DNA from: Gammaproteobacteria bacterium
GTDB taxonomy: Bacteria; Pseudomonadota; Gammaproteobacteria; GCA-001735895
Assembly: GCA_030066085.1 (NCBI GenBank)
Contig: JASJCI010000007.1
Span: 28,363 to 92,362 of the forward strand
Reading direction: 5' to 3'
DNA length: 64,000 bases
Shown here one piece after another: positions 6,425-58,324 of this stretch. A program made the position numbers and the translations under genes. Each line of letters opens with the position of its first letter. Positions within the stretch are counted from its first letter, which is position 1. Below the pieces are notes generated by a model. The model saw only the letters and a program-made list of their open reading frames with translations, searched no databases and had not been told where the DNA came from.

Positions 6425-9058
6425 TCAGGCAGCAGCCGGTGCTCCTGACTCCCGCTCCTCGCGCGCGCGCCGCTTCTGCAGCAGGATAACCAGCGCCAGC
6501 AAAATTACCGCCGGAATGTAAAACACTTCCTTGGGCATGCGCTCCACCGGCTGGCGCAGTTCCGCGATCTGCACCGGCTCATCGCCGTAAAAATCGAACG
6601 ACTTGCCGATACCCTCGAAGAAGGGTGTGCCGGGAAAGGGTTCCTCGATCACCGCCCGCTCGCCGTCCAGCATGACGCCCAGGCCGGCCTTGTTCAGGCG
6701 GTCGGCCGCGTCGCCGGCTTCGCCCAGCTCGACCAGGATCGTGGTCGACTCGATCTCGCCGGAATCGAAGTCGGGCCCGCTGACGACCAGGCTCAACACG
6801 CTGCCCGGCTGCATACCGTCGACGACCTCGTACACCTCCGCCGATGGCAACACGTCGAACGGCGGCTGCACGCGGTCGAGCCAGTAGCCCGGCCGGAACA
6901 GGGTAAACGCGATCAGCAACAGCAGCGCCGACTCCCAGATCTTGTTACGCGTGAACATGAAACCCTGGGTGGCCGACGCAAACAGCATCATCGCTATTAC
7001 CGCCACGAAAAACACGAAAAACGCCTTCGGTACCGATACGTCGATCAGCAGCAGCTCGGTGTTGAAAATGAACAGGAACGGCAGCAGCGCGGTGCGGATG
7101 TCGTAGGCAAAACCCTGCACGCCGGTCATGATCGGGTCACCCTTGGAAATGGCCGCGGCGGCAAAGGCCGCGAGACCCACCGGCGGCGTATCGTCGGCGA
7201 GGATACCGAAGTAGAACACGAACAGGTGCACCGCGATCAGCGGCACGATCAGGCCGCTCTTGGCGCCGAGGGTGATGATGACCGGCGCCATCAGCGACGA
7301 TACGACGATGTAGTTGGCCGTGGTCGGCAGGCCCATGCCGAGGATCAGGCTCATGATCGCGACCAGGATCAGCATCACGATCAGGCTGCCGCCGGACAGG
7401 AATTCGACGAACTCGCCCACCACCTGGTGCGCGCCGGTCAGCGAAATGGTGCCGACGATGATGCCGGCGGCACCGGTTGCAACGGCGATACTGATCATGT
7501 TGCGCGAACCGGCGATCATGCCCTCGACCCAGTGCCCGAACCCGATCTTGAAAGCCTCGGCGTAGTTGCCCGTGCCGCGGAAAAAGGCCTTGAGGGCATC
7601 CTGGGTCAGGATCACGATGATCATCGCGATGGTCGCCCAGAAGGCCGACAGTGCCGGCGACAGGCGCTCGACGATGATGCACCAGATCAGGATCACGATC
7701 GGCAGGATGTAATACAGCCCGGTGATCGCGGTCGCACCGGCTCGCGGCAGCTCGGTAATCGGCGCGTCCGGATCATCGACCACCAGGTCCGGCTGTTTCG
7801 ACGCGAGCCATATGAGATAGAGATAAGCTGCCGCGCAGCCGACCGAAACGATGGCAAAGGCAAATTCCGGGATCACGTCCTTGATCCAGCCGAGACCGAA
7901 GTAGACCACGACCCCGAGCAGGCCGATGCCGATGAAACCGCTGAGGAAGCCGATCAGCTTGTTGGCGAAAGTCAGGGTCGAAGGCGGCTTCGGCAGGCCT
8001 TTCAGGTTCAGCTTCATCGCTTCGAGGTGCACGATGTAAACCAGCGCGATGTAGGAAACCAGCGCCGGTACCAGCGCGTGTTTCAGGATCTGGGTATAGC
8101 TGATGCCGGTGAACTCGGCGATCAGGAAGGCCGCGGCACCCATGACCGGCGGCGTCAGCTGACCGTTGGTCGACGACGCGACCTCGACCGCGCCGGCCTT
8201 TTCCGGGGTAAAACCCGTACGTTTCATCAGCGGGATAGTAAAGGTACCGGTGGTCACCGTGTTGGCGATCGACGACCCCGAGTAGAGCCCGCTCATCGCC
8301 GACGCGACTACCGCGGCCTTGGCCGGCCCACCGCGCAGGTGGCCGAGCAGCGCAAACGCGATCTTGATGAAATAGTTGCCCGCGCCGGCCTTTTCCAGGA
8401 TCGAGCCGAACAGCACGAACAGGAATATCAGCGACGCCGAAACGCCCAGCGCAACGCCGAATACACCCTCGTTTTGCATCCAGTAGTGCCACATGGCCTT
8501 GCCGTAGGAGGCGCCCTTCCACTGGATGGCTTCCGGCATGAAATCGAGGTGGCCGAAAAATACATAGAACACGAACACGCTGGCGACGATCAGCAGCGGC
8601 AGGCCGAGCGCGCGGTATACCGTGACGCCGAGAACCAGCATGCCGACGGTCGACGCGACCAGGTCACCCTGGGTCGGCAGGCCGGCGCGCACGGCAATTT
8701 CGTTACGCAGGACCACGATATAAAGACAGCAGGAAACACCGACGATGGCGAGCATCCAGTCGTACCAGGGGATGCGATCGCGCGGACTGTGTTTGAACAG
8801 CGGAAACGCCATCGCCGCGAGCAGCAGGCCGAAAGCGAGGTGGATCAGGCGCGCGTTGGAGTTGGTGACAACCATGCTGATGCCGGTGACGTCGGTCAAC
8901 CAGAACGGCAGGTTGGATGCGATGTAAAGCTGGAACAGCGCCCAGACGAACGCGGTGCCGGCAATGAACTTGCTCTGCCAGCCGAGCGGATTACGCGCGC
9001 CGGTATCGACCTGGGCAACCAGGTCGTCCTGTACGCTTGACTCGGACTTATCCGACAT
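6425..9058 (-). CDS. TRAP transporter fused 4TM/12TM permease with C-terminal extension
   Basis: GGPAKAAVVAS, SGSSIANTVTTG, PPVMGAAAF, GMGLPTTANY, ADDTPPVGLA. Confidence 0.92.
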   Translation of the reverse strand: MSDKSESSVQDDLVAQVDTGARNPLGWQSKFIAGTAFVWALFQLYIASNLPFWLTDVTGISMVVTNSNARLIHLAFGLLLAAMAFPLFKHSPRDRIPWYDWMLAIVGVSCCLYIVVLRNEIAVRAGLPTQGDLVASTVGMLVLGVTVYRALGLPLLIVASVFVFYVFFGHLDFMPEAIQWKGASYGKAMWHYWMQNEGVFGVALGVSASLIFLFVLFGSILEKAGAGNYFIKIAFALLGHLRGGPAKAAVVASAMSGLYSGSSIANTVTTGTFTIPLMKRTGFTPEKAGAVEVASSTNGQLTPPVMGAAAFLIAEFTGISYTQILKHALVPALVSYIALVYIVHLEAMKLNLKGLPKPPSTLTFANKLIGFLSGFIGIGLLGVVVYFGLGWIKDVIPEFAFAIVSVGCAAAYLYLIWLASKQPDLVVDDPDAPITELPRAGATAITGLYYILPIVILIWCIIVERLSPALSAFWATIAMIIVILTQDALKAFFRGTGNYAEAFKIGFGHWVEGMIAGSRNMISIAVATGAAGIIVGTISLTGAHQVVGEFVEFLSGGSLIVMLILVAIMSLILGMGLPTTANYIVVSSLMAPVIITLGAKSGLIVPLIAVHLFVFYFGILADDTPPVGLAAFAAAAISKGDPIMTGVQGFAYDIRTALLPFLFIFNTELLLIDVSVPKAFFVFFVAVIAMMLFASATQGFMFTRNKIWESALLLLIAFTLFRPGYWLDRVQPPFDVLPSAEVYEVVDGMQPGSVLSLVVSGPDFDSGEIESTTILVELGEAGDAADRLNKAGLGVMLDGERAVIEEPFPGTPFFEGIGKSFDFYGDEPVQIAELRQPVERMPKEVFYIPAVILLALVILLQKRRAREERESGAPAAA

Positions 9059-11888: not shown

Positions 11889-12467
11889 ATGTCGAAAAAA
11901 CTGATCGCAGTACTCACTGGCCTCATGCTAACGCTGAGCATTACTGCGCAGGCCAACCAGCCCGCGACCCAGGCGGCCGAGCCCGCGCCAATCGGTACCT
12001 TCAACCCGTTCGATCCGAACGCGTGGATGAGTGGTTTTGTCCCCGGCACCGGCGCGACCACGGCGGCACTGAAGTTCAACGCCGCGCATCCGGCGGACTG
12101 GATGAAGTGGGTCGATCCAAAAACCCATACCCAGATGCACATGATGTTCGCCAACCCGGCAACCTACGCGCAGTTCGTGCAGCCGCAGTTCTACTTCGAA
12201 TTCATGAAGCCCGAGAACATGATGGCCTGGATGGACTTCAACCAGTATGCCGTCATGTGGGATCCGCAAACCATGACCCACTGGATGAACCCGGCCAGCT
12301 ACATGCACGCGATGGATCCGGCCATGTACACCGAGACCATGAACCCGGCCAACTACATGGTCTACATGAACCCGAACACTTACCTGGCTGGCTGGACCGG
12401 TGGTCAAACTTGCGATCCGAAGAAAAACCCGAACGCAAAGAAGAGCTGGTTCGGTTACCACTGCTGA
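11889..12467 (+). CDS. secreted Met/aromatic-rich protein with tandem 9-aa repeats
   Basis: GGAGG RBS, signal peptide (..TAQA), 20 Met in 192 aa, C-terminal Cys pair, own terminator. Confidence 0.85.
   Translation: MSKKLIAVLTGLMLTLSITAQANQPATQAAEPAPIGTFNPFDPNAWMSGFVPGTGATTAALKFNAAHPADWMKWVDPKTHTQMHMMFANPATYAQFVQPQFYFEFMKPENMMAWMDFNQYAVMWDPQTMTHWMNPASYMHAMDPAMYTETMNPANYMVYMNPNTYLAGWTGGQTCDPKKNPNAKKSWFGYHC
12153..12395 (+). repeat. nine consecutive degenerate 27-bp (9-aa) coding repeats, consensus [ND]PxxYxx[WF]M
   Basis: NPATYAQFV/QPQFYFEFM/KPENMMAWM/DFNQYAVMW/DPQTMTHWM/NPASYMHAM/DPAMYTETM/NPANYMVYM/NPNTYLAGW. Confidence 0.85.
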
Positions 12468-12505
12468 ATTCTGGCATTACCTCCACGGGGATATCATCCC
12501 ATTTG

Positions 12506-12534
12506 GCCGCGGCCCCTCGCCGCGGCTTTTTTTT
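12506..12534 (+). terminator. Rho-independent terminator
   Basis: GCCGCGGC-ccctc-GCCGCGGC followed by T8. Confidence 0.8.
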
Positions 12535-12563
12535 GCCTGCTGCAAATTGCCGCCCTAATATTT

Positions 12564-12719
12564 CGGGGACAGTTTACTTTTCTTTTTCGGGGACGGTTTA
12601 GAGTTAGCCCGAAAGCAAGCGGTTTTCGTTTTCGGGGGTGCTAGGACGCTCACGCGATATGCAGATAAACCGCGGTCTTAGAAACAGTGTCCCCAAAACT
12701 AATTGGTAAACTGTCCCCG
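12564..12719. mobile_element. 156-bp MITE-like element with 14-bp perfect terminal inverted repeats (copy A)
   Basis: CGGGGACAGTTTAC (12564-12577) / GTAAACTGTCCCCG (12706-12719); inner GGGGAC copy 24 bp inside each end; same ends at 57691-57843. Confidence 0.65.
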
Positions 12720-12793
12720 GAACTGGATGGCCGCGGCTTCTTTTTGCACGCTGCAAACGCCGGTTTCATGGCTATAAAATCCGACTCGCCGGA

Positions 12794-57383: not shown

Positions 57384-57551
57384 TCTGACCTCCTCGAATG
57401 GTTTTAACTTGTCGTTGACCGGCGTTGCACCGACCAAGCCCCCATTTGATGCATTTTTTGTTGCTGATCTTCACTCACAAGAAACATATCAATTATGAGT
57501 GAAAATCATGCACCACTTATAACCCAATACCCACAATAATTTCAACGTAAT

Positions 57552-57568
57552 TGCGCTATTTTGGTGCC
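57552..57568. promoter_or_regulatory. NtrC-like box upstream of amt-2 (overlaps a possible sigma54 GG-N10-GC motif on the minus strand)
   Basis: TGCGCTATTTTGGTGCC; minus strand TGGCACCAAAATAGC. Confidence 0.4.
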
Positions 57569-57577
57569 AATTTGGGC

Positions 57578-57611
57578 AAAAAAACAGGCTTGCCGGTATC
57601 CCGGTAAGCCT
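57578..57611 (-). terminator. duplicate terminator
   Basis: AGGCTTGCCGG-tatc-CCGGTAAGCCT with A-run; near copy of 57874-57906. Confidence 0.7.
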
Positions 57612-57639
57612 GTTTCACCGGCTTCCGCCACCACCGGTT

Positions 57640-57687
57640 TCAGGTGAACTTTTCGTATATCGCGAGCCAATCGACTCGAGCATCAAA
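57640..57687 (-). pseudogene. remnant 3' end of the 129-aa gene
   Basis: Translates ..RVDWLAIYEKFT* versus ..MVDLRKAYEKFA* of 57935-58324. Confidence 0.55.
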
Positions 57688-57690
57688 TTA

Positions 57691-57843
57691 CGGGGACAGT
57701 TTACTAATTAGAATCGGGGACACTGTAGATAAACCCGCTAAAAACGCGGCGCACTGATGCTGGCGAACATCGCTGATGTGAAAAGCCGTTGGTATACGGT
57801 CGAAATTCAGGCTGTCCCTGAAATAGAAAAGTAAACTGTCCCC
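57691..57843. mobile_element. 153-bp MITE-like element (copy B, inverted relative to copy A)
   Basis: CGGGGACAGTTTAC (57691-57704) / GTAAACTGTCCCCG (57830-57843); inner repeats 24 bp inside each end. Confidence 0.65.
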
Positions 57844-57873
57844 GAAATGGGCCCCGAAATGGGGGAGGACAGG

Positions 57874-57906
57874 CAAAAAAAAGGCTTGCCGGTAACCCGG
57901 CAAGCC
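57874..57906 (-). terminator. terminator of the second GS/mgs-like operon
   Basis: AGGCTTGCCGG-taac-CCGGCAAGCCT with A8. Confidence 0.75.
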
Positions 57907-57934
57907 TCGCTGGTTTTGCCTTGCGGCCGTCGGT

Positions 57935-58324
57935 TCAGGCGAACTTTTCGTAGGCCTTGCGCAGGTCGACCATCGGGTGCGATGACGACATCTGGAACTT
58001 GACCAGCAGTTCGCGCGCAATCATGTCGCGGTCCTGCTGGTTGTCCGGCAGCTCGATATCCGGCGGAATCGTCACCCAGCCGTTGATGTTGCGGTCGAAC
58101 ACGGCCGGGCGGCCTTCCTCGTAGCCCATGTGCACGTCTTCGAGCCAGTTCAGGTCCTGCCAGCCCATGACCTCCATGTACTGGCGCAGAAACGGCGTGC
58201 AGCGCTCCATGTCGGGAACCAGGTTTACATCATAGCGATAACCGATGTGCTGACCGATGATTTTTTCGCGCTCGGTATCGACCCCGTCGCCTTCGAGGAA
58301 GTGATTGATGTCTTGTTCAGCCAT
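57935..58324 (-). CDS. hypothetical 129-aa acidic protein, last gene of the operon
   Basis: AAGGAGG RBS; 13 nt from the upstream stop. Confidence 0.8.
   Translation of the reverse strand: MAEQDINHFLEGDGVDTEREKIIGQHIGYRYDVNLVPDMERCTPFLRQYMEVMGWQDLNWLEDVHMGYEEGRPAVFDRNINGWVTIPPDIELPDNQQDRDMIARELLVKFQMSSSHPMVDLRKAYEKFA

What the first reader, a model, noticed from the sequence alone, without database searches (positions are those of the whole stretch)
12561..12722. Family of ~155-bp elements with identical ends but dissimilar cores (copies at 12.6 and 57.7 kb)
Seen: both 12564-12719 and 57691-57843 have perfect 14-bp TIRs (CGGGGACAGTTTAC). All four ends carry a second GGGGAC/GGGAC copy exactly 24 bp inward. 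End-specific spacers are conserved between copies in inverted orientation (TTTTCT[T/A]TTTC and [C/T]AATTAG), while the ~90-bp interiors show no similarity I can align. No target-site duplication is evident and no transposase lies in the window. Inference: a non-autonomous element or paired recombination sites with two protein-binding repeats per end that can enclose variable DNA, i.e. a possible minimal cassette system.
Basis: partly seen in the sequence, partly recalled or inferred. Interest (0 to 1): 0.7.

Follow-up and report, generated by a model that had tools for sequence, protein, structure and literature searches.

The report
Gene-less TIRYT transposase-end hairpin elements
The two ~155-bp elements are gene-less copies of the inverted-repeat ends of a known but little-studied bacterial mobile element (a "TIRtron", whose gene encodes a single-strand-DNA tyrosine transposase), so they are a new example of a described kind and not a new cassette system.

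Summary
Both elements have perfect CGGGGACAGTTTAC inverted termini, a second GGGGAC/GGGAC site 24 bp inward at all four ends, end-specific spacers and unalignable cores.

The ends are the terminal inverted repeats of "TIRtrons" (Di Nocera 2013). These are genes for TIR-associated tyrosine transposases (TIRYT; TnpAY1 subclass 2.1; RAYT Group 1) framed by GGGGWSAS-type repeats.

- **Distribution:** the same 13-26-bp end occurs in many Alpha-, Gamma- and Deltaproteobacteria and Planctomycetota, almost always as convergent pairs around 13-157 bp of variable DNA.
- **Gene link:** in at least 10 loci the pair encloses a ~220-aa Y1/HUH gene that scores above the NCBIfam cutoff for REP-associated tyrosine transposase.
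- **Protein-first test:** all 11 closest TIRYT genes carry the motif on both sides, and more distant ones carry co-varying variants.

The window has no TIRYT gene. Copy 2 is an insertion polymorphism, because empty-site alleles exist. Metagenome depth shows the ends are repeated and the core is unique.

One feature stays unexplained. Both window copies are bracketed by imperfect direct duplications of the host terminator region, which is not a family trait.

Verdict: new member of a known kind, modest interest.

The parts
12564..12719 (+). Copy 1 of the gene-less TIRYT-end element (L end first on the + strand), 156 bp
   Evidence: Perfect 14-bp inverted termini. Folds as ssDNA into one long hairpin, z -4.85. 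Ends match the family consensus.
12564..12601 (+). L end of copy 1: terminal site CGGGGACAGTTTAC, spacer TTTTCTTTTTC, subterminal site CGGGGACGGTTTAG
   Evidence: The same L end is 94-100% identical in L243-L247.
12689..12719 (-). R end of copy 1: subterminal GTCCCC, spacer AAAACTAATTG, terminal GTAAACTGTCCCCG
57691..57844 (-). Copy 2 of the element (L end first on the - strand), 154 bp. It is an insertion polymorphism.
   Evidence: ssDNA hairpin z -5.53. Empty-site alleles L150/L155 and a diverged occupied allele L156/L157. Depth spikes over the ends only.
57840..57863 (+). Tandem duplication of the TIR tip plus flank (CCCCGAAATGGG x2) at the L end of copy 2
   Evidence: It is absent from the L156/L157 allele. 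The same kind of tip/flank tandem repeat is seen in L001, L005, L007, L010, L049 and L123.
12505..12546 (+). Intrinsic terminator of the upstream gene (11889-12467) plus T-run and GCCTGCTGCAAA. This is the 'A' copy of the flank duplication at site 1.
12730..12757 (+). 'B' copy of the site-1 flank duplication (partial terminator, 89% identical to 12519-12546)
57875..57952 (-). 3' end of the 129-aa gene (57935-58324) plus its terminator. This is the 'A' copy of the site-2 flank duplication.
57579..57690 (-). 'B' copy at site 2: a diverged pseudo-3' end (...YEKFT*) plus a second terminator, lying between the element's R end and the shared downstream sequence
   Evidence: The occupied and empty alleles differ by 295 bp, which equals the element plus one duplicate.

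Best explanation
Each element is a non-autonomous, hairpin-forming pair of TIRtron ends, that is, the terminal inverted repeats of a TIRYT gene cassette without the gene. TIRYT is a TIR-associated Y1/HUH tyrosine transposase, a RAYT relative.

The conserved 13-26-bp tip (…TC-GGGGACAGTTTAC-T…) and the subterminal GGGGAC copy are the sites read by a TIRYT encoded elsewhere in the genome. By analogy with IS200/IS605 TnpA and E. coli TnpA-REP, the enzyme acts on the single-stranded, folded-back form, in which the two arms pair. There it nicks and rejoins DNA to excise, copy or re-insert the unit.

The core between the arms is unconstrained filler that drifts at the intergenic rate. This is why copies share ends but not interiors.

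Shown here:
- family identity;
- the physical link between TIRYT genes and the motif, in both directions;
- co-variation of the TIR with the enzyme;
- the hairpin fold;
- ends that are multi-copy while the core is unique;
- presence/absence polymorphism at site 2.

Inferred: catalysis, mobilisation in trans, and present-day activity in this genome.
For: - The architecture is 83 convergent pairs and essentially no divergent ones, with an inner gap of 13-157 bp.
- **Neighbouring gene:** unbiased ORF clustering of 130 motif loci recovered a ~220-aa protein lying between convergent motif copies in L017, L038, L068, L074, L123 and L138, with L057 and gene fragments in L028, L049, L098 and L106.
- **Protein identity:** Pfam Y1_Tnp. 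NCBIfam NF047646 'REP-associated tyrosine transposase' at 84.6 and 87.2 bits against a cutoff of 80. PDB 4er8 TnpA-REP at E 4e-8. The motifs NHVH, WQ and Y(I/V)ELNP equal subclass 2.1 of PMC6006769, which that paper equates with the TIRYTs of PMC3733652. Their TIR consensus is GGGGWSAS, and ours is GGGGACAG.
- **Protein-first search:** 588 relatives were confirmed. All 11 loci with at least 59% identity carry the motif on both sides, at -84..-151 and +3..+33. More distant ones carry variants changed identically in both arms.
- **Fold:** ssDNA fold z-scores are -4.85 and -5.53.
- **Polymorphism:** empty-site alleles exist at site 2. In the orthologous occupied allele the L end differs at about 1 of 46 positions, against about 20-25% in the core.
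- **Read depth:** depth over the ends is up to 8-18 times the locus baseline in three sediment metagenomes, while the core stays at baseline.
- **Close relatives:** five further two-site relatives share only the ends.
Against: - No TIRYT gene lies in the 64-kb window.
- As far as I found, no biochemical study of any TIRYT exists, so the mechanism rests on analogy.
- Only two copies were seen here, plus a third reported by an earlier unchecked note.
- Copy 1 is identical in every contig found, so recent movement is shown, at most, for site 2.
- The long flank duplications are not predicted by peel-and-paste Y1 transposition, which makes no target duplication.
Confidence: 0.82

Rival explanations
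1. Fossil or domesticated ends. The elements are immobile relics of TIRtron activity whose arms are kept by selection for a host-level role, such as a stable hairpin after terminators, mRNA 3' protection or a protein-binding site. Some REP sequences are thought to work this way. They would not be currently mobilised.
For: - Both window copies and L245 sit just past an intrinsic terminator.
- Copy 1 is invariant in all contigs.
- Arms stay near-perfect while cores and neighbouring intergenic DNA diverge.
- No TIRYT is in the window.
- PMC3733652 notes that TIRtrons and TIR families coexist in only a limited number of genomes.
Against: - Conservation is of sequence, identical across phyla, and not merely of pairing. 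That points to recognition by the co-varying enzyme.
- Site 2 is polymorphic for presence.
- The ends are multi-copy with many different flanks in the same samples.
- A terminator already precedes each copy, so the added hairpin is not needed for termination.
Confidence: 0.12
2. Paired recombination sites forming a minimal cassette system. The ends are autonomous units that can come to flank arbitrary DNA, so the cores are captured or exchanged cargo.
For: - Cores among six closely related two-site elements differ in both sequence and length (125-230 nt) while the ends are 94-100% identical.
- Single (solo) ends and direct arrays are common: 63 solo clusters.
- The interior's orientation relative to the asymmetric outer flanks flips between copies.
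- Both window copies sit at junctions of duplicated host sequence.
Against: - In the only orthologous pair the core is alignable and diverges like neutral DNA. It has not been replaced.
- No core contains an ORF or matches other known DNA.
- No dedicated site-specific recombinase is linked. The only linked gene is the Y1 transposase.
- The core-length modes of 14-24 and 47-53 nt fit lineage-specific descent.
Confidence: 0.04
3. Operator array or small-RNA gene. The repeats are binding sites of a transcription factor, or the hairpin is a structured RNA.
For: The sites are multiple and phased (24-bp spacing), and a strong fold is predicted.
Against: - Site 1 lies between convergent gene ends, and site 2 lies directly after a terminator.
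- There is no Rfam match in the window.
- The same sequence sits in unrelated genomic contexts across phyla, and its only recurrent neighbour is the TIRYT gene.
- The pairing arms show sequence conservation and not covariation.
Confidence: 0.02

Closest known systems
TIRtrons / TIRYT and their dispersed TIR repeat families (Di Nocera, De Gregorio & Rocco 2013, BMC Genomics 14:522, PMC3733652). Equated with TnpAY1 subclass 2.1 (Quentin et al. 2018, PMC6006769), which that paper's table maps to RAYT Group 1 of Bertels et al. 2017 (PMC5581495).
   Same: - The TIR tip fits GGGGWSAS (GGGGACAG).
- The same TIR flanks a ~220-240-aa Y1/HUH gene with NHVH, WQ and YxELNP motifs in inverted orientation.
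- The 3' TIR abuts or overlaps the gene end.
- TIRs also occur gene-less as singles, dimers and clusters at moderate copy number.
- The taxonomic distribution is wide and patchy.
   Different: - This specific 13-26-bp TIR, near-identical across Alpha-, Gamma- and Deltaproteobacteria and Planctomycetota, was not found in a literal full-text search.
- The window's variant has two sites per end with distinct L and R spacers.
- The HTH-like C-terminal domain reported for part of subclass 2.1 was not detected by Pfam in this clade.
- The window copies carry long imperfect host-flank duplications.
REPIN-RAYT systems (Bertels & Rainey 2011, PMC3116915; Nunvar et al. 2010, PMC2817692) and E. coli TnpA-REP (PDB 4ER8, PMC3479197)
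   Same: - Two inverted repeats around a short spacer fold into a hairpin.
- They are non-autonomous.
- The cognate Y1/HUH gene is flanked by the same repeats.
- The protein passes the NCBIfam RAYT model and matches 4ER8.
   Different: - A single arm is not itself a palindrome and has no 5' GT[AG]G foot.
- Copy number is low, not in the hundreds.
- The same repeat sequence is shared across phyla instead of being lineage-specific.
IS200/IS605 elements and their gene-less derivatives (PATEs); IS608 TnpA mechanism
   Same: The catalytic fold is HUH/Y1, the expected substrates are single-stranded and hairpin-dependent, and no short target duplication is made.
   Different: IS200/IS605 ends are asymmetric subterminal hairpins, not long terminal inverted repeats. 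The transposase here belongs to class 2 (Y---NP), not class 1 (Y---Q).
Bacterial MITEs of DDE insertion sequences (e.g. Correia/NEMIS, RUP, ERIC)
   Same: They are about 70-300 bp, have terminal inverted repeats and no coding capacity, lie between genes and often follow genes.
   Different: There is no short target-site duplication. The adjacent DDE transposases are inconsistent: IS1380 in L010 and an IS66 fragment in L005. The enzyme that shares the TIR is a Y1 transposase.

Membership tests
TIRtron / TIRYT-end repeat family | TIR tip fits the consensus GGGGWSAS | tested here: met
   All four termini read GGGGACAG. The consensus is from PMC3733652 and PMC6006769.
TIRtron / TIRYT-end repeat family | The same TIR flanks, in inverted orientation, a gene for a Y1/HUH transposase of the RAYT-like class | tested here: met
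   Motif-first: L017, L038, L068, L074, L123 and L138. Protein-first: 11 of 11 closest relatives and 27 of 79 overall have both arms at 2 or fewer mismatches. All of this is in other genomes.
TIRtron / TIRYT-end repeat family | Protein motifs of TnpAY1 subclass 2.1: HuH NHVH, W[EQ], Y-motif Y[IV]ELNP, length about 238 aa | tested here: met
   The alignment A1 shows invariant N59 H60 x H62, W99 Q100 and Y119 x E121 x N123 P124, with lengths of 216-234 aa. NF047646 scores 84.6 and 87.2 against a cutoff of 80.
TIRtron / TIRYT-end repeat family | C-terminal HTH-like domain (Bac_DnaA_C / HTH_23 / HTH_28) reported for subclass 2.1 | tested here: inconclusive
   Pfam at E<=5 finds only Y1_Tnp in three members. 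A conserved C-terminal tail (…TGRP.G…F…LE…G..L…K.GPK) exists. PMC6006769 says the domain is heterogeneous in subgroup 2.1.2.
TIRtron / TIRYT-end repeat family | A cognate TIRYT gene is present in the same genome as the gene-less copies | not testable with these tools
   None is in the window.
TIRtron / TIRYT-end repeat family | Gene-less TIRs dispersed as singles, dimers or clusters | tested here: met
There are two dimers in the window, 83 dimers, 63 solos and several arrays in other genomes, and depth spikes over the ends in metagenomes.
Classical REP/REPIN (GTAG-type) | Each repeat is a short imperfect palindrome with a 5' GT[AG]G foot | tested here: not met
   A single arm (…TC GGGGACAGTTTAC TTAATT…) has no self-complementarity and no GTAG/GTGG foot. 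The definition is from PMC6006769.
Classical REP/REPIN (GTAG-type) | Inverted doublet that folds into a hairpin and shares its repeats with the flanks of a RAYT gene | tested here: met
MITE of a DDE insertion sequence | Short direct target-site duplication, and a DDE IS with the same TIRs | tested here: not met
   No short TSD at either copy. The neighbouring DDE transposases belong to different families and do not share the TIR.
Integron attC site / gene cassette | R''/R' core sites RYYYAAC…GTTRRRY, a linked integron integrase and a cassette ORF | tested here: not met
   The ends read …AGTTTAC / GTAAACT…, which do not fit RYYYAAC / GTTRRRY. There is no ORF in the cores, and no integrase recurs near the motif.

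The most novel reading that the evidence does not exclude
In this marine-sediment lineage the two-site TIRYT-end element lands, L end first, about 25-30 nt past the T-run of an intrinsic terminator, and in doing so joins two diverged copies of the host gene's 3' end and terminator.

That pattern would mean TIRYT ends do more than peel-and-paste transposition. One possibility is that they process extruded terminator hairpins with a long, variable stagger (28 to about 95 nt). Another is that they act as recombination junctions carrying adjacent host DNA between strains (flank transduction or allele joining). Such activity has not been described for any Y1/RAYT-type enzyme.
Probability: 0.12. Interest if true: 0.65.

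Novelty: new member of a known kind. Interest (0 to 1): 0.3.

Why it matters
TIRYTs are among the commonest Y1/HUH proteins in bacteria. Yet as far as I found, their DNA substrates and activity have not been studied biochemically.

This locus gives three things that could guide such work:
- a sharply defined substrate, a 13-26-bp tip that co-varies with the enzyme, plus a phased subterminal site;
- a natural occupied/empty polymorphism;
- an odd, reproducible association with duplicated terminators.

For genome annotation, it explains a recurrent "mystery" intergenic repeat in marine Proteobacteria.

Tried and rejected
- **Literature and Rfam:** a literal full-text search for the 13-mer found nothing. 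Rfam gathering thresholds over the whole window gave no match.
- **IS66 or IS1380 end:** this idea came from the GTAA tip and from neighbours in L005 and L010. I rejected it because the adjacent DDE families are inconsistent and the orientation is wrong.
- **Serine-recombinase site:** suggested by the gene next to the L001 array. That gene gave no recombinase hit in Pfam, only a sub-threshold ROS/MucR match, and did not recur in the ORF clustering.
- **Chance matches:** L006 is a chance match in IS1595 zinc-ribbon coding sequence (RGQFTVT). L009 is a single motif copy inside GC-rich sequence of a Clostridiales contig and was not examined further.
- **Cores as TIRYT-gene deletion remnants:** only a spurious hit in L246 that starts in the TIR-encoded peptide, with 15/52 identities against a tiny database.
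- **Long flank duplication as a family signature of insertion:** rejected. Only 3 of 106 small modules exceed the control (two of them the window copies), none of 26 full TIRtrons do, and none of the 4 closest relatives do.
- **45-kb composite transposon between the two inverted copies:** disfavoured, because strains with an empty site 2 keep the same gene order.
- **Vehicles for horizontal transfer:** 0 hits in viral contigs. Only 8 of 72,556 plasmids carry a relative, all below 43% identity.
- **Empty site for copy 1:** not found; all contigs are identical.
- **Excision joints in public data:** only assembler contigs were available, and none skips the 295-bp block.

Full report
**1. The observation**

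The sequence is as described.
- CGGGGACAGTTTAC occurs perfectly four times, as two convergent pairs at 12564-12577/12706-12719 and 57691-57704/57831-57844.
- Counting a 2-mismatch copy at 12588, there are 5 matches against 0.35 expected, and no shuffle reached 5.
- A second GGGGAC/GGGAC lies exactly 24 bp inward at all four ends.
- The spacers are end-specific and show that copy 2 is inverted relative to copy 1.
- The roughly 90-nt interiors do not align in either orientation.

Each copy is bracketed by an imperfect direct duplication of host sequence.
- At site 1, a 28-nt block spans half of the upstream gene's terminator, its T-run and 12 nt beyond (89% identity, spacing 211).
- At site 2, about 95 nt hold the last codons of the 129-aa gene and its terminator (blocks of 91% and 95%, spacing 295/296).

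**2. The ends belong to a widespread family**

The hits cover Woeseiaceae, Halieaceae, Pseudomonadales, Granulosicoccaceae, Hoeflea, Mesorhizobium, Aquibium, Caulobacteraceae, Desulfobacterota and Planctomycetota, often with several copies per genome.

The architecture is stereotyped.
- There are 83 simple convergent pairs and essentially no divergent ones.
- The inner gap is 13-157 bp, with modes at 14-24 and 47-53.
- Conservation extends to about 26 bp: …(A/T)T(C/T)C-GGGGACAGTTTAC-TTAATT(C/G)….
- Outer flanks are palindromic within a module.
- In Hoeflea and Rhizobiaceae the outer flanks are conserved and asymmetric for 15-25 bp beyond the motif.

The interiors are the least conserved part everywhere.

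**3. The partner gene**

I extracted all ORFs of at least 110 aa from the 130 motif-selected loci and clustered them. One cluster was positioned on the motif.
- It is a ~220-aa protein whose gene lies between convergent motif copies in L017, L038, L068, L074 and L123, with fragments in L028, L049, L098 and L106.
- L138 adds a copy whose ends carry the window's own TTTTCT spacer.
- The geometry is constant: left arm, TTAATTC, a 70-110-bp leader, the ORF, and a stop codon that abuts or overlaps the right arm.

The protein's identity is well supported.
- It matches Pfam Y1_Tnp.
- It scores above the curated cutoff of NCBIfam NF047646, 'REP-associated tyrosine transposase' (84.6 and 87.2 bits against 80).
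- It matches E. coli TnpA-REP, PDB 4ER8 (E 4e-8).

Its invariant motifs NHVH, WQ and Y-x-E-x-NP and its length are those of TnpAY1 subclass 2.1 of Quentin et al. 2018, shown in that paper's table as Bertels' Group 1. That paper equates the subclass with the TIRYTs of Di Nocera et al. 2013. Those genes are flanked by long terminal inverted repeats sharing GGGGWSAS ('TIRtrons'), with moderately abundant gene-less TIR families arranged as singles, dimers or clusters. GGGGACAG fits that consensus.

**4. Test from the protein side**

- All 11 loci with at least 59% identity to the query carry the motif (2 or fewer mismatches) on both sides, 84-151 bp upstream and 3-33 bp downstream of the protein match.
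- At 47-56% identity the TIRs become related variants, and the change is mirrored in both arms: GGGGTCAGTTTCC/GGAAACTGACCCC, GGTGACAGTTTAC/GTAAACTGTCACC, GGGGACACCTTAC/GTAAGGTGTCCCC and GGGGACGGTATAC/GTATACCGTCCCC.

This enzyme-TIR co-variation is the strongest indication that the TIR is the enzyme's recognition sequence.

**5. The window copies**

- No TIRYT gene is in the window (best E 0.49).
- As ssDNA each element folds into one long hairpin: a terminal 15-17-bp stem, an internal loop from the unlike spacers, and a second stem from the subterminal sites (z -4.85 and -5.53).
- The window matches contig JARPNM010000703.1 of NCBI GCA_029979885.1, from marine sediment.
- Contigs from other samples encode the identical 129-aa protein but have a 257-bp gap to the next gene instead of 552 bp.

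Alignment of these contigs shows that L150 and L155 are empty-site alleles, lacking exactly the element plus one copy of the duplicated flank (295 bp). L156 and L157 carry a diverged copy of the element at the same place.

In that orthologous pair the L end differs at about 1 of 46 positions. By eye the core differs at about 20-25%, similar to or less than the adjacent intergenic DNA. So the ends are constrained and the core is not.

Laying Logan contigs of four sediment metagenomes on the locus gave, in three of them, depth of 41-818 over the two ends against 6.6-46 for the locus. Depth over the core stayed at baseline or zero. Contigs diverge just outside 57685-57691 and 57844-57851. The repeated unit is therefore the ends.

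Five further metagenome contigs carry the same two-site L and R ends, at 94-100% identity, around unrelated cores. Total element lengths run from about 155 to 260 bp. Copy 1 is identical in all contigs found.

**6. Mechanism**

The best-supported reading is that these are gene-less TIRtron end-pairs. Functionally they are analogous to REPINs, recognised at the tip and subterminal site by a TIRYT encoded elsewhere, and processed in single-stranded fold-back form. The cores are neutral filler.
- Shown here: family identity, the gene-TIR linkage in both directions, co-variation, the fold, multi-copy ends and polymorphism at site 2.
- Inferred: catalysis and trans-mobilisation, by analogy with IS608 TnpA and E. 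coli TnpA-REP.

I found no biochemical study of a TIRYT.

**7. What remains unexplained**

The flank duplications are real (scores 27 and 20.5 against a control maximum of 14) but are not a family trait.
- Only 3 of 106 small modules exceed the 99th percentile of the control, and two of those are the window copies.
- None of 26 full TIRtrons exceeds it.
- None of the four closest relatives does.

Both window copies have the same layout: gene, intact terminator, T-run followed by GCCTG, about 25-30 nt, L end, R end, then the second diverged copy of the terminator region. TTTTTTTGCCTG occurs in the window only at these two terminators.

At site 2 the conservation between the two copies is patchy. 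The YEKFx-stop block is 95% identical, the hairpin 91% and the linkers about 60%. This resembles divergence between functional alleles of different strains more than decay of an in-situ duplicate.

On that basis I slightly favour recombination or import that joined two alleles at the element over a long staggered cut at insertion. I cannot decide between them.

**8. Comparison with earlier notes of this scan**

These were consulted after the identification was made.
- Note e1-1512817 reports a third GGGGACAGTTTA cluster elsewhere in this genome.
- Note e1-715629 reports two near-identical terminators 194 bp apart around a 170-bp spacer. This could be another duplicated-terminator case, but it could not be read.
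- Several follow-ups in other genomes reached the same TIRYT/TIRtron assignment. They also noted tandem duplication of TIR tips, which I saw independently in L001, L005, L007, L010, L049, L123 and at 57840-57863 of the window.
- One note reports a TIRtron with 102-bp flanking direct repeats. My tests show such repeats are not general.

**9. Verdict**

- The 'new cassette system' part is not supported.
- This is a new member of a known, little-studied kind. The residual novelty lies in the terminator-associated flank duplications and in the cross-phylum identity of the end sequence.

Noticed in passing
L072:1263-1337 vs L118:1581-1655; also L026:6252-6325 vs L112:1305-1378: The interior's orientation relative to the asymmetric outer flanks flips between copies. 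L072 and L118 share a perfect 25-nt match only when one interior is reverse-complemented. This could be inversion of the loop between the arms, by recombination or by template switching at the palindrome.
   Followed up: partly
L026 vs L112 (Hoeflea-type loci): The two loci share 100/100 identical right flanks, but only 68/100 in the left flank and a strongly diverged interior. The module therefore sits at a recombination or rearrangement breakpoint.
   Followed up: no
L049 upstream of its TIRYT (rc 7677-7998); L123:1600-1820 and 2625-2720; L010:4250-4540; L001:7100-7240: Microsatellite-like arrays of 7-8-nt units (e.g. CGGTAATT x ~20, GGAGTTC x ~8, CGGAATT(C) repeats), mixed with partial GGGGAC tips, pile up just outside the TIRs. 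They may be footprints of repeated nicking and rejoining.
   Followed up: partly
L038:2182-2913 (-): The TIRYT reading frame runs through the right TIR, so the protein's last residues (…KKVNCPRN) are encoded by the recognition sequence itself.
   Followed up: no
window 57440-57935 vs L150, L155, L156: The intergenic region between the 129-aa gene and amt is highly diverged between strains (by eye; the terminator hairpin changes by compensatory pairs), while the adjacent coding sequence is almost identical.
   Followed up: partly
L008:387-459: A TIRYT-end module lies immediately upstream of a 5S rRNA gene.
   Followed up: no
L006:385-413: The 14-mer also occurs by chance inside the zinc-ribbon coding region of an IS1595-family transposase (peptide …CRGQFTVTAGT…). 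This is a source of false positives in motif scans.
   Followed up: yes
L045:973-1986: A longer (338-aa) Y1-type protein of a different subclass is encoded a few kb from TIRYT-end motifs. A fragment resembling a TIRYT N-terminus lies at 7369-7491 beside a motif copy.
   Followed up: no
Hoeflea/Rhizobiaceae modules, e.g. L040:3455-3480: The conserved right outer flank GAAATTCTGGCACGTCGTTTCTGC loosely resembles a sigma-54 -24/-12 element (TGGCACG-N4-TT..GC).
   Followed up: no
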